IMG/VR virus record: IMGVR_UViG_2896607866_000003
Coordinates: 1 to 11,346 of that record
DNA from: a virus
Lineage: Duplodnaviria > Heunggongvirae > Uroviricota > Caudoviricetes
DNA length: 11,346 nt
Reading direction: 5' to 3' (one strand)
Shown: positions 5,833-5,942 of the stretch, piece by piece
Numbering within the stretch: the first letter of the stretch is position 1
Layout: every line of letters begins with the position of its first letter
Position numbers and translations under genes: made by a program
Notes under the pieces: model-generated
What the model was told of the DNA's origin: nothing
Seen by the model: only the letters and a program-made list of their open reading frames with translations
Databases searched by the model: none

Positions 5833-5862
5833 TTGACGACAACACATATCCGGGGCTATATT
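5833..5862 (+). promoter_or_regulatory. Candidate sigma70 promoter (TTGACG - 18 bp - TATATT), plus strand
   Basis: -35 TTGACG at 5833-5838 and -10 TATATT at 5857-5862; divergent from the TA operon; predicted start about 5869. Confidence 0.35.
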
Positions 5863-5868
5863 CCTCAC

Positions 5869-5942
5869 GCGCCAGCAAAATCTGGCGTCGGGATTGGAAC
5901 CCCGGATATCGAAACGGTGCATACCGCGCTGGCGGTTTTTTT
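5869..5942 (+). ncRNA. Candidate small structured RNA or attenuator leader (about 74 nt) ending in an intrinsic terminator
   Basis: Hairpin GCGCCAG (5869-5875) / CTGGCGT (5882-5888), then ACCGC-GCTG-GCGGT (5923-5936) followed by T7. CGCCAGC (5870-5876) can instead pair with GCTGGCG (5928-5934), which would disrupt the terminator. Confidence 0.25.
5923..5942 (+). terminator. Candidate Rho-independent terminator (5-bp GC stem, GCTG loop, T7)
   Basis: ACCGC GCTG GCGGT TTTTTT read on the plus strand. Confidence 0.4.

What the first reader, a model, noticed from the sequence alone, without database searches (positions are those of the whole stretch)
5833..5942. Promoter followed by a leader with mutually exclusive pairings ending in an intrinsic terminator: candidate sRNA or riboregulator
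A near-consensus promoter (TTGACG-18-TATATT) faces away from the TA operon. The predicted transcript has CGCCAGC (5870-5876), which can pair either with the adjacent CTGGCGT (5882-5888), leaving the terminator ACCGC/GCGGT plus T7 intact, or with GCTGGCG (5928-5934), which would destroy it. Such alternative pairing is typical of attenuators and riboregulators. It could produce an RNA of about 74 nt or gate read-through into the ORF6N-like and antirepressor genes.
Basis: seen in the sequence. Interest (0 to 1): 0.55.

Follow-up and report, generated by a model that had tools for sequence, protein, structure and literature searches.

The report
IsrK-type prophage small RNA leader

Summary
Window 5869-5942 matches Rfam isrK (72.1 bits, gathering score 50) and 5856-5908 matches c4-a1b1 (50.1, gathering 46.7). 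A C4 antisense RNA follows at 5969-6053 (75.2, gathering 45), then an antirepressor gene at 6106-6792. In 88 distinct homologues the three hairpins (SL1, SL2, terminator) covary: 96% of cells paired, 223 compensatory cells against 60 in shuffles. The proposed alternative pairing, 5870-5876 with 5928-5934, does not covary (59.3% paired against 59.9% shuffled). It occurs only in the window's own near-identical lineage and has a predicted equilibrium probability of 0.027. The pairing that is conserved and mutually exclusive is different. The SL2 loop (UUGGAAC 5894-5900) and the linker (UCGAAAC 5909-5915) repeat the two C4 target elements found beside the antirepressor ribosome-binding site (6057-6063, 6088-6094). 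All three partners covary across about 80 loci. The same layout is present in phage P7 immI, and the helix matches the G28-C162 and G31-C159 pairs tested in Salmonella Gifsy-1. Verdict: a known sRNA and riboregulator. "About 74 nt" and "read-through into the antirepressor" are supported; the anti-terminator mechanism is not. Interest is low.

The parts
5833..5862 (+). Sigma-70-type promoter: TTGACG (5833-5838), 18-nt spacer, TATATT (5857-5862). The inferred start is 5869.
   Evidence: Best promoter-like site in the window, 10 of 12. A -35/-10 pair sits at the same place in 98 of 105 distinct homologous upstream regions. The -10 ends 6 nt before SL1 base 1 in 102 of 105. The transcription start is inferred, not measured.
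5869..5942 (+). IsrK-family small RNA, 74 nt: SL1, SL2, linker, terminator.
   Evidence: Rfam RF01394 isrK at 72.1 bits (gathering 50), E = 3e-14, full-length model match. RF03163 c4-a1b1 at 50.1 bits (gathering 46.7) over 5856-5908.
5869..5888 (+). SL1: a 7-bp stem (5869-5875 with 5882-5888) and a loop CAAAAU inside the conserved motif GCAAAAUC.
   Evidence: 98.1% of cells paired. Six of seven pairs show compensatory changes, for example columns 6/15 as AU 41, GC 29, CG 15, UA 3. Probability 0.97 in the window RNA.
5889..5904 (+). SL2: CGGG/CCCG stem with UUGGAAC (5894-5900) in the loop. This is the first C4-target mimic.
   Evidence: The stem is 100% paired and near-invariant. Loop 5894-5900 against C4 6025-6031: 99.6% paired, 49 compensatory cells against 6.8 shuffled, 0 of 500. 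Three-way class concordance holds in 75 of 78 units.
5909..5915 (+). Linker element UCGAAAC: the second, hypervariable C4-target mimic. It is identical to 6088-6094.
   Evidence: Exact match between the linker and the reverse complement of the cognate C4 hairpin-2 loop has median 7 nt, against a mean of 3.8 for non-cognate pairs. Linker against the cognate leader has median 8 nt. There are 51 distinct loop sequences.
5923..5942 (+). Intrinsic terminator: ACCGC, loop GCUG, GCGGU, with a U-run of 7 at 5936-5942.
   Evidence: Terminator scan. The helix covaries in homologues, 89.9% paired, with columns 61/88 and 62/87 carrying 38 and 35 compensatory cells. Termination itself was not measured.
5916..5949 (+). 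Helix bracketing the terminator and U-tract: GGUGCAU 5916-5922 with AUGCGCU 5943-5949. It can form only in read-through RNA.
   Evidence: 75.5% paired against 65.5% shuffled, and 74 compensatory cells against 24.9, 0 of 500. It is part of the MFE of the read-through RNA.
5969..6053 (+). C4-type antisense RNA. Base stem 5974-5990 with 6032-6048. Hairpin 1 is 5991-6004. Hairpin 2 is 6005-6023, with recognition loop AUGUUUCGA at 6010-6018. The single-stranded recognition element GUUCCAA is at 6025-6031.
   Evidence: Rfam RF01695 at 75.2 bits (gathering 45). The fold is 96.6% paired with 199 compensatory cells against 49.1, 0 of 500. A C4 lies at a fixed distance downstream of 89 of 102 distinct IsrK-like units.
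6055..6063 (+). Leader target element 1, GAUUGGAAC. UUGGAAC 6057-6063 is complementary to C4 6025-6031.
   Evidence: 99.5% paired, 53 compensatory cells against 7.5, 0 of 500.
6088..6100 (+). Leader target element 2, UCGAAAC (6088-6094), complementary to the C4 loop GUUUCGA 6012-6018. It sits 2 nt upstream of the Shine-Dalgarno GAGG (6097-6100) of the antirepressor gene.
   Evidence: The cognate leader matches the reverse complement of the C4 loop over a median of 8 nt, against a mean of 4.2 for non-cognate pairs. Positions were read.
6106..6792 (+). Antirepressor gene, 228 aa, with ORF6N and P22AR C-terminal domains. This is the regulated gene.
   Evidence: Pfam PF10543 at 2.6e-20 and PF10548 at 2.2e-28. 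The 96.5%-identical E. coli locus annotates it as 'phage antirepressor Ant'.

Best explanation
Window 5833-5942 is the promoter and first RNA of a prophage antirepressor control module of the phage P1/P7 immI type. This is the same module as the Salmonella Gifsy-1 isrK locus.

Transcription starts at about 5869. Most transcripts are expected to stop at the intrinsic terminator (5923-5942), which gives a 74-nt IsrK-family sRNA. A fraction reads through into the C4-type antisense RNA (5969-6053) and the antirepressor gene (6106-6792).

C4 has two recognition elements: the hairpin-2 loop GUUUCGA and the single-stranded GUUCCAA. They are complementary to two elements in the antirepressor leader, 6057-6063 and 6088-6094. 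The second lies 2 nt from the Shine-Dalgarno sequence, so C4 binding should block translation of the antirepressor.

IsrK carries exact copies of both target elements, in its SL2 loop (5894-5900) and linker (5909-5915), so it mimics the C4 target. In the read-through RNA this region either folds locally as SL2 or pairs with the C4 segment; the paired state is the translationally silent 'structure A' described for Gifsy-1. As a free sRNA, IsrK can compete for the same C4 segment and thereby relieve repression of the antirepressor.

Shown here: family membership, the folds, the three-way covariation and the gene context. Taken from experiments on Gifsy-1: read-through and trans-activation. Inferred: that C4 is processed and represses here, and that IsrK acts as its decoy.
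For: - Three Rfam gathering-level hits in the expected order: isrK, c4-a1b1 and C4.
- Canonical IsrK hairpins: 96.0% of cells paired, 223 compensatory cells against 60.4 shuffled, 0 of 500.
- C4 fold: 96.6% paired, 199 compensatory cells against 49.1.
- IsrK SL2 loop with C4: 99.6% paired, 49 compensatory cells against 6.8.
- C4 with the leader: 99.5% paired, 53 compensatory cells against 7.5.
- Class concordance among IsrK loop, C4 and leader in 75 of 78 units, across four specificity classes.
- The hypervariable second element matches among IsrK linker, C4 loop and leader, with median exact matches of 7-8 nt against about 4 for non-cognate sets, over 51 distinct loop sequences.
- A C4 follows 89 of 102 IsrK-like units at a fixed distance.
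- The MFE of the 185-nt read-through RNA (-82.6 kcal/mol) pairs 5894-5900 with 6025-6031 at probability 0.72 and dissolves SL2 (probability 0.02). The short RNA keeps SL2.
- Phage P7 immI has the same layout with an annotated c4, and the isrK model scores 43.7 bits there.
- In Gifsy-1 the compensatory mutants G28A/C162U and G31A/C159U test this same helix. G28 and G31 lie in the UUGGCGU loop by the Rfam isrK numbering. Short IsrK expressed in trans raises antirepressor translation more than 100-fold (PMC4825925).
- The downstream gene is an ORF6N/P22AR_C antirepressor.
Against: - There are no expression data for this locus. The transcription start, termination efficiency, C4 processing and Hfq binding are all untested.
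- Gifsy-1 relies on translational coupling through orf45, whose stop codon overlaps the anrP start. Here the ORF from the conserved AUG (5973) is only 27 codons and ends 50 nt before the antirepressor ATG. That step of the Gifsy-1 mechanism therefore cannot be transferred as it stands.
- In Gifsy-1, constitutive co-expression of the downstream RNA (STnc1160) did not counteract IsrK toxicity; it enhanced it. This sits awkwardly with a simple C4-repressor and IsrK-decoy picture.
- In the longer 257-nt context the MFE keeps SL2 and C4 folded separately, so the two states are close in energy.
- The prophage is IS-riddled, with IS3-family genes at 2918-3823 and 7613-8326, so the module may no longer matter to its host.
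Confidence: 0.85

Rival explanations
1. This is the reader's model: a transcription attenuator. The SL1 5' arm (5870-5876) pairs either with 5882-5888, leaving the terminator intact, or with 5928-5934, destroying the terminator. That choice gates read-through into the antirepressor genes.
For: The 7-nt Watson-Crick complementarity exists in the window. A structure containing it is only 2.4 kcal/mol above the MFE. Read-through of this terminator is real in Gifsy-1.
Against: There is no co-conservation: 59.3% of cells pair against 59.9% shuffled, and the covariation score is 0.126 against 0.131. Mean contiguous complementarity is 3.18 nt against 3.19 for permuted pairs. Runs of at least 6 nt occur only in 3 of 88 variants, all of one lineage. 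The equilibrium probability is 0.027 against 0.97 for SL1. SL1 folds first during transcription. No sensing element, such as a leader peptide or a ligand or protein site, is evident.
Confidence: 0.03
2. The short RNA is only a by-product of a leaky terminator in a structured 5' leader. All regulation happens in cis within the read-through RNA, through the a1/b1 region pairing with C4, and the free 74-nt RNA has no function.
For: The predicted cis pairing of 5894-5900 with 6025-6031 has probability 0.72 in the 185-nt RNA. In P7 the equivalent hairpin scores below the isrK gathering score (43.7 bits) and is followed by only five U.
Against: A hairpin plus U-run is kept in 88 distinct homologues and covaries. 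In Gifsy-1 the short form supplied in trans activates translation 114- to 171-fold, and point mutants lose this activity.
Confidence: 0.1
3. The RNA is chiefly a conventional Hfq-dependent trans-acting sRNA that targets host mRNAs. The invariant SL1 loop GCAAAAUC would be its seed, and its position upstream of the antirepressor would be incidental.
For: Rfam describes the family as an Hfq-binding RNA. The SL1 loop is invariant, and no partner for it was found within the operon.
Against: The parts that vary and covary are the SL2 loop and the linker, and they track the linked C4 and leader rather than any host gene. The unit is linked to C4 in 89 of 102 cases. The invariance of the SL1 loop is partly imposed by the search pattern used to collect the homologues.
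Confidence: 0.05
4. The stretch encodes a small protein. Candidate ORFs are 5814-5951 (45 aa), 5833-6081 (82 aa) and 5894-6025 (43 aa), all on the plus strand, and the N-terminal extension of the toxin ORF on the minus strand (5458-5922).
For: These ORFs exist mechanically.
Against: Compensatory base-pair changes, rather than codon conservation, explain the variation. The ORF from the conserved AUG varies from 3 to more than 48 codons among homologues. The toxin gene is annotated as 109 aa, starting at 5787 in window coordinates.
Confidence: 0.02

Closest known systems
IsrK sRNA of Salmonella prophage Gifsy-1 (Rfam RF01394; Hershko-Shalev et al. 2016, PMC4825925)
   Same: Both have an own promoter and the same three-hairpin RNA: SL1 with a GCAAAAUC loop, SL2 with a UUGG loop, and a terminator with a U-run. 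Both are about 75 nt and lie upstream of a prophage antirepressor. In both, the SL2/linker region is complementary to an RNA segment about 160 nt downstream, which is the helix tested by G28/C162 and G31/C159. The window scores 72.1 bits against a gathering score of 50.
   Different: There is no orf45-type ORF whose stop overlaps the antirepressor start. The equivalent ORF is 27 codons and ends 50 nt upstream. Here the antirepressor has its own Shine-Dalgarno sequence directly beside a C4 target element. The specificity class is AAC rather than the CGU class implied by the Gifsy-1 mutants. The flanking genes also differ: a HigB-like/HTH toxin-antitoxin pair lies upstream instead of antQ.
immI operon of phages P1 and P7: a1/b1 leader, c4 antisense RNA, a2/b2, icd, ant (Rfam RF03163 and RF01695; Citron and Schuster 1990, cited)
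   Same: The order of parts is the same, and the logic is the same: two recognition elements in C4, each matched once in the leader upstream of c4 and once at the ribosome-binding site of the first downstream gene. The P7 locus (L122) shows SL1, SL2, linker element GAUUGUG, a terminator-like hairpin, c4, then GUUUAGCAG and GAUUGUGAGG before icd.
   Different: No icd gene is present, and the antirepressor follows C4 directly. The antirepressor is of the ORF6N/P22AR_C type rather than Ant1/2. No C1 operator is evident. The host element is a lambdoid prophage (NinB, NinE context), not a P1 plasmid prophage. The window's terminator is a better match to the isrK model than P7's (72.1 against 43.7 bits).
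P4 CI RNA with its seqA/seqC targets
   Same: The Gifsy-1 authors name it as a structural homologue. A processed small RNA pairs with copies of its target both upstream and downstream of itself.
   Different: According to the description in PMC4825925, CI causes premature transcription termination of replication genes rather than blocking antirepressor translation. It was not compared by sequence here.
Classical terminator/anti-terminator attenuators (trp leader, T-box, riboswitch expression platforms)
   Same: An intrinsic terminator lies in a 5' leader, and read-through feeds the downstream genes.
   Different: There is no conserved anti-terminator helix and no sensor. The conserved alternative pairing acts on translation and RNA-RNA recognition, not on terminator formation.

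Membership tests
Rfam RF01394 isrK | Covariance-model score at or above the curated gathering score (50 bits), with a full-length match | tested here: met
   72.1 bits, E = 3e-14, model positions 1-77 of 77, window 5869-5942.
Rfam RF01394 isrK | Three hairpins: SL1 with a GCAAAAUC loop, SL2 with a UUGG loop, and a terminator with a U-run | tested here: met
   The RNAfold MFE keeps SL1 and SL2, and the terminator scan finds the third hairpin. Covariation on 88 homologues gives 96.0% paired, 0 of 500 shuffles as high.
Rfam RF01394 isrK | Own promoter, with the transcription start at the first base of SL1 | tested here: inconclusive
   A promoter-like site scores 10 of 12 and is positionally conserved in 102 of 105 homologous upstream regions. 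No transcript data exist for this locus.
Rfam RF01394 isrK | Hfq binding, partial read-through of the terminator, and trans-activation of antirepressor translation | not testable with these tools
   Known only from experiments on Gifsy-1 (PMC4825925).
Gifsy-1 isrK-orf45-anrP mechanism | An upstream ORF (orf45) whose stop codon overlaps the antirepressor start (AUGA), giving translational coupling | tested here: not met
   The ORF from the conserved AUG at 5973 ends at 6056, and the antirepressor ATG is at 6106. ORF length ranges from 3 to more than 48 codons among 80 homologues.
P1/P7 immI module (RF03163 c4-a1b1 plus RF01695 C4) | Both covariance models score at or above their gathering scores, in the order a1b1 then C4 on one strand | tested here: met
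   c4-a1b1 at 50.1 bits (gathering 46.7) over 5856-5908. C4 at 75.2 bits (gathering 45) over 5969-6053.
P1/P7 immI module (RF03163 c4-a1b1 plus RF01695 C4) | Two elements in the upstream leader are complementary to the two recognition elements of C4 | tested here: met
   5894-5900 with 6025-6031, and 5909-5915 with 6012-6018. Covariation.
P1/P7 immI module (RF03163 c4-a1b1 plus RF01695 C4) | The same two elements are repeated downstream of C4, at the ribosome-binding region of the first gene | tested here: met
   6057-6063 and 6088-6094, with the Shine-Dalgarno GAGG at 6097-6100 and the ATG at 6106. Covariation.
P1/P7 immI module (RF03163 c4-a1b1 plus RF01695 C4) | An icd gene between c4 and ant, and a C1 repressor operator at the promoter | tested here: not met
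   The antirepressor gene follows C4 directly. P7 has icd and the operator Op(c4) annotated, and nothing comparable was seen here. The operator was judged only by inspection.
P1/P7 immI module (RF03163 c4-a1b1 plus RF01695 C4) | C4 is released from the precursor by processing (RNase P in P1, from my own memory of the literature) and represses ant | not testable with these tools
   This needs RNA end mapping and reporter assays.
Terminator/anti-terminator attenuator | A conserved helix, mutually exclusive with the terminator, that covaries across homologues | tested here: not met
RNAfold's own alternative 3' hairpin: 47.3% against 48.8%.

The most novel reading that the evidence does not exclude
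IsrK-type sRNAs may in general be dedicated decoys (target mimics) of the C4-type antisense repressor encoded just downstream. Gifsy-1 IsrK and the long-unexplained a1/b1 sequences of P1/P7 would then be the same device.

The hypervariable linker, C4-loop and leader triplet, with 51 distinct versions among 74 units, together with at least four classes of the UUGGNNN element, would form a combinatorial RNA immunity code. That code would decide which co-resident prophages can cross-induce or cross-repress one another's antirepressors.

The papers I could read treat IsrK and c4 as separate entries, and the IsrK paper compares its RNA with P4 CI rather than with P1 c4. Rfam, however, already labels this region 'a1, b1 targets of C4'.
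Probability: 0.5. Interest if true: 0.45.

Novelty: already known. Interest (0 to 1): 0.2.

Why it matters
For this finding the practical value is a correct label. The stretch is an IsrK/a1b1 leader and is followed by a C4 antisense RNA. RefSeq annotation of the 96.5%-identical E. coli locus lists neither RNA.

Biologically the module controls an antirepressor, and so controls prophage induction. In Gifsy-1, IsrK is required for spontaneous induction.

The family-wide covariation collected here ties the Gifsy-1 experiments to the P1/P7 immI model. It also shows a large diversity of RNA specificity elements. This could be used to predict cross-talk between prophages in polylysogens, such as Shiga-toxin phage carriers, which dominated the phage database hits.

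Tried and rejected
Tested by permutation, by pair counting on 88 homologues and by energy. Rejected.
- **RNAfold's alternative 3' hairpin.** The MFE of the 74-nt RNA uses 5915-5920 with 5926-5931, plus 5908-5911 with 5933-5936, instead of the canonical terminator. It is not conserved and I treat it as a single-sequence artefact.
- **Duplex energies for the variable element.** RNAduplex energies for linker or leader against the C4 loop discriminated cognate from non-cognate pairs only weakly: about 3.5 kcal/mol, with the cognate best in 12-13 of 76 rows. GC-rich flanks dominate the energy. I replaced this with exact-match lengths.
- **A partner for the invariant SL1 loop.** The search for GATTTTGC found 20 matches against 15 expected, none in the operon on the right strand.
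- **Locating Gifsy-1 itself.** A search of the phage collection with the Rfam isrK consensus returned E. coli and Klebsiella phages only. The Gifsy-1 comparison therefore rests on the paper's numbering.
- **Checking the a/b naming.** The original P1 papers (PMC523184, PMC204598) are not held. I describe the elements by position and do not assert which is 'a' and which is 'b'.
- **The genome-wide pattern scan.** 64 of its 120 hits lack an SL1 stem and are chance matches. I used it only for a rough host range.
- **tRNA scan.** It found nothing.
- **A LexA-box-like CTGT-N8-ACAA overlapping the -35.** Seen by eye, but not shared by homologues outside the window's lineage. Dropped.
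Full report
**1. What is in the sequence.**

- TTGACG 5833-5838, an 18-nt spacer, TATATT 5857-5862.
- CGCCAGC 5870-5876 and CTGGCGT 5882-5888.
- GCTGGCG 5928-5934.
- ACCGC 5923-5927 pairing with GCGGT 5932-5936, followed by a run of seven T that ends at 5942.

The promoter is the best sigma-70-like site in the window at 10 of 12. Such sites as a class are not enriched there: 6 were found against 10.5 expected in shuffles.

**2. Identification.**

A scan of the whole window against Rfam gave three hits above the curated thresholds, all on the plus strand:
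- isrK (RF01394) at 5869-5942: 72.1 bits against a gathering score of 50, E = 3e-14, full-length match.
- c4-a1b1, "a1, b1 targets of C4 antisense RNA" (RF03163), at 5856-5908: 50.1 bits against 46.7.
- C4 antisense RNA (RF01695) at 5969-6053: 75.2 bits against 45.

No tRNA is present.

The neighbourhood is a lambdoid prophage nin region:
- NinB at 4499-4945.
- A Gp49/HigB-like toxin and an HTH antitoxin on the minus strand, about 5458-5787 and 5160-5468.
- On the plus strand after the RNAs, an ORF6N plus P22AR_C antirepressor (6106-6792), a terminator (6810-6829) and a Rha plus KilAC antirepressor (6861-7589).
- IS3-family transposase genes on either side.

The closest complete E. coli genome, strain VL40, is 96.5% identical across 5160-6800. 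Its annotation lists the proteins but neither RNA.

**3. Homologues.**

The pattern GCAAAATCNNNNNNCGGGNTTGG retrieved 120 viral contigs. With the E. coli VL40 locus they yield 98 distinct variants, of which 88 are distinct full-length IsrK-like RNAs.

A -35/-10 pair scoring at least 8 of 12 is present in 98 of 105 distinct upstream regions. The -10 hexamer ends exactly 6 nt before the first base of SL1 in 102 of 105. This is the basis for placing the transcription start at 5869.

A C4-like RNA follows at a fixed distance in 89 of 102 distinct units.

The same pattern in bacterial genomes hit many chance sites. The 56 of 120 hits that have a proper SL1 stem come from Enterobacterales, Pseudomonas, Vibrio, Aeromonas, Xanthomonas and relatives. 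Twenty-eight of them have a recognisable C4 downstream, and none of the 64 stem-less hits does.

**4. Structure of the short RNA.**

On the MAFFT alignment of the 88 RNAs (A1), RNAalifold returns SL1, SL2 and the terminator. Counting the canonical pairs gives 96.0% of cells paired, 223 compensatory cells against 60.4 in shuffles, and a covariation score of 0.466 against 0.177. No shuffle out of 500 reaches these values, and every slid control is below 42% paired. SL1 is especially clear, with four different base pairs at several positions.

**5. The proposed alternative pairing.**

On the same alignment the pairs 5870-5876 with 5928-5934 give 59.3% paired cells, against a shuffled mean of 59.9% (434 of 500 shuffles are as high). 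The covariation score is 0.126 against 0.131.

Without relying on the alignment, I measured the longest Watson-Crick run between the SL1 5' arm and the 22 nt before the U-run. It averages 3.18 nt, against 3.19 nt when arms and terminators are permuted among sequences. Runs of at least 6 nt occur in 3 of 88 variants. All three carry the window's own terminator, ACCGCGCTGGCGGT, and so represent one lineage. The permuted rate is 1.2%.

Energetically, the window RNA has an MFE of -26.6 kcal/mol. The canonical three-hairpin structure is at -25.1, and the best structure containing the proposed helix is at -24.2. The helix has an equilibrium probability of 0.027, against 0.97 for SL1. SL1 is also complete about 40 nt before the terminator is transcribed.

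The MFE uses a different 3' hairpin, 5915-5920 with 5926-5931. That hairpin is not conserved either: 47.3% paired against 48.8% shuffled.

**6. What the conserved alternative pairing is.**

Aligning the C4 segments and the leaders downstream of them shows two recognition elements in C4. One is the loop of hairpin 2, AUGUUUCGA at 6010-6018 in the window. The other is the single-stranded stretch before the closing stem, GUUCCAA at 6025-6031.

Each has a complement in two places:
- In the antirepressor leader: UUGGAAC at 6057-6063, and UCGAAAC at 6088-6094, 2 nt before the Shine-Dalgarno GAGG at 6097-6100. The ATG is at 6106.
- In IsrK: UUGGAAC at 5894-5900 in the SL2 loop, and UCGAAAC at 5909-5915 in the linker.

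Evidence for the first element:
- The variable triplet next to UUGG/CCAA agrees among all three partners in 75 of 78 distinct units, across four classes: CGU, UCU, AAC and CAU.
- On the alignment of 80 whole units (A2), IsrK with C4 is 99.6% paired, with 49 compensatory cells against 6.8 in shuffles.
- C4 with the leader is 99.5% paired, with 53 compensatory cells against 7.5. No shuffle out of 500 reaches either value.

Evidence for the second element, which is hypervariable with 51 distinct C4 loop 16-mers among 74 units:
- The cognate IsrK linker matches the reverse complement of the C4 loop over a median of 7 nt, against a mean of 3.8 nt for non-cognate pairs.
- The cognate leader matches over a median of 8 nt, against 4.2 nt.
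- Linker and leader share a median of 8 nt.
- Matches of at least 7 nt occur in 2-4% of non-cognate comparisons.

The C4 fold itself is well supported: 96.6% paired, 199 compensatory cells against 49.1.

**7. Folding of the read-through RNA.**

For 5869-6053 (185 nt) the MFE is -82.6 kcal/mol. In it SL2 is dissolved (probability 0.02), and 5894-5900 pairs with 6025-6031 (probability 0.72) within a long helix that also uses the linker.

With 72 more nucleotides, the 257-nt stretch 5869-6125, the MFE keeps SL2 and a separately folded C4. The two states are therefore close in energy.

This reproduces the Gifsy-1 description. There a translationally silent structure A has the middle of IsrK paired with about 30 nt further downstream, and an active structure B has the IsrK middle hairpin re-formed. 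The reported energies are -85.66 and -84.21 kcal/mol (PMC4825925).

The Gifsy-1 compensatory mutants G28A/C162U and G31A/C159U fall, by the Rfam isrK numbering, on the UUGGCGU loop and the ACGCCAA stretch. That is the helix found here by covariation.

**8. Relation to P1 and P7.**

The P7 immI region (L122) carries an annotated C1 operator, c4, icd and ant1/2. Its sequence reads as follows:
- A promoter.
- SL1, with loop GCAAAUUC.
- SL2, with loop GUUUAGCAG.
- A linker containing GAUUGUG.
- A hairpin followed by five U.
- c4, with loop CACAAUC and single strand CUGCUAAC.
- GUUUAGCAG and then GAUUGUGAGG before icd.

Rfam scores this region 55.5 bits for c4-a1b1, 69.6 bits for C4 and 43.7 bits for isrK, the last below the gathering score.

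IsrK and the a1/b1 leader of the P1-type immunity operon are therefore the same element.

The papers I could read list IsrK and c4 separately, and the IsrK paper draws its analogy with P4 CI/seqA. I could not obtain the original P1 papers. For that reason I do not state which element is called a and which b. The statements that C4 is matured by RNase P, and that repression of ant involves translational block followed by termination, come from my memory of that literature and were not checked here.

**9. Mechanism proposed for this locus.**

Shown: membership of the RNA families, the folds, the three-way complementarity and the antirepressor context.

Borrowed from Gifsy-1 experiments: the terminator is leaky, the read-through RNA is the antirepressor mRNA, and the short RNA in trans switches translation on.

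Inferred: C4 is released, or acts in cis, and occludes the antirepressor ribosome-binding region through 6057-6063 and 6088-6094. IsrK carries the same two elements and competes for C4.

One Gifsy-1 step does not transfer. In Gifsy-1, orf45 ends on the anrP start codon and couples translation of the two. Here the ORF from the conserved AUG at 5973 is 27 codons and stops at 6056. Across homologues its length ranges from 3 to more than 48 codons. In this window the antirepressor has its own Shine-Dalgarno sequence next to the second target element, as at icd in P7.

One Gifsy-1 observation argues against a simple decoy model. Constitutive co-expression of the downstream RNA enhanced IsrK toxicity rather than relieving it.

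**10. Other conserved pairings seen on the way.**

- GGUGCAU 5916-5922 pairs with AUGCGCU 5943-5949 across the terminator and U-tract, so this helix can exist only after read-through. It is 75.5% paired against 65.5% shuffled, with 74 compensatory cells against 24.9.
- The 3' strand of the C4 base stem, CGCCACC 6044-6050, can pair with the C4 5' strand or with GGUGGUG 6069-6075 downstream. The downstream pairing is 96.8% paired. One position changes together with both partners in 9 sequences.

**11. Verdict.**

The general reading, an sRNA or riboregulator of about 74 nt with read-through into antirepressor genes, is right. The specific anti-terminator mechanism is a chance complementarity.

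The element is already catalogued and its type member has been studied experimentally, so the interest of the finding as given is low. The family-wide covariation and the equation of IsrK with the P1/P7 a1/b1 leader are a modest by-product.

Noticed in passing
window 5916-5922 with 5943-5949: GGUGCAU upstream of the terminator pairs with AUGCGCU just after the U-tract. The helix brackets the terminator and can form only in read-through RNA. It covaries across 80 homologues (75.5% paired against 65.5% shuffled; 74 compensatory cells against 24.9). Its role is unknown. It may be a processing site or may stabilise the long form.
   Followed up: partly
window 6044-6050 with 6069-6075 (alternative to 5974-5978 with 6044-6048): The 3' strand of the C4 base stem (CGCCACC) can pair with a downstream GGUGGUG instead of the C4 5' strand. 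That would place the leader element GAUUGGAAC (6055-6063) in a hairpin loop. The pairing is 96.8% paired, and one position covaries with both partners in 9 sequences. Separately, AAGGUGGUGA at 6067-6076 is 9 of 10 identical to the extended Shine-Dalgarno consensus AAGGAGGUGA as I recall it, yet the next start codon is the antirepressor ATG at 6106, about 30 nt on.
   Followed up: partly
window 5875-5882 (SL1 loop GCAAAAUC): The loop motif is invariant in the homologues collected, partly because the search pattern required it. P7 has GCAAAUUC. No complementary partner was found in the operon, so its function is unexplained.
   Followed up: partly
window 5973-6056: The ORF that starts at the conserved AUG, the start of 'orf45' in Gifsy-1, is 27 codons here and ends 50 nt before the antirepressor ATG. 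Its length ranges from 3 to more than 48 codons in 80 homologues. It overlaps the C4 RNA and is not a conserved protein.
   Followed up: yes
window 5798-5813: An inverted repeat, ATAACAA-AA-TTGTTAT, lies 11 nt upstream of the start of the Gp49/HigB-like toxin gene (ATG at 5787 on the minus strand). It is a candidate operator for autoregulation of the toxin-antitoxin pair by the HTH antitoxin. It was seen by eye only.
   Followed up: no
homologous loci such as L012, L023, L049, L095 (upstream regions listed): A large sub-family of IsrK promoters has an inverted repeat, TTACC-N5-GGTAA, directly upstream of and abutting a TTTACA -35. This is probably a repressor operator. The window's promoter lacks it.
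   Followed up: no
L001 (E. coli VL40, NZ_CM177011.1) 4700-4950 and phage records: Public annotations of near-identical loci list no ncRNA for IsrK or C4. In several phage records the stretch is annotated as 'hypothetical protein' or as part of the antirepressor.
   Followed up: no
window 2918-3823, 7613-8326 and flanks: IS3-family transposase genes (rve domains) interrupt the prophage on both sides of the module. The best whole-window matches in E. coli genomes cover at most 39% of the window. The prophage is probably a degraded remnant in an IS-rich genome of the Escherichia/Shigella type.
   Followed up: no
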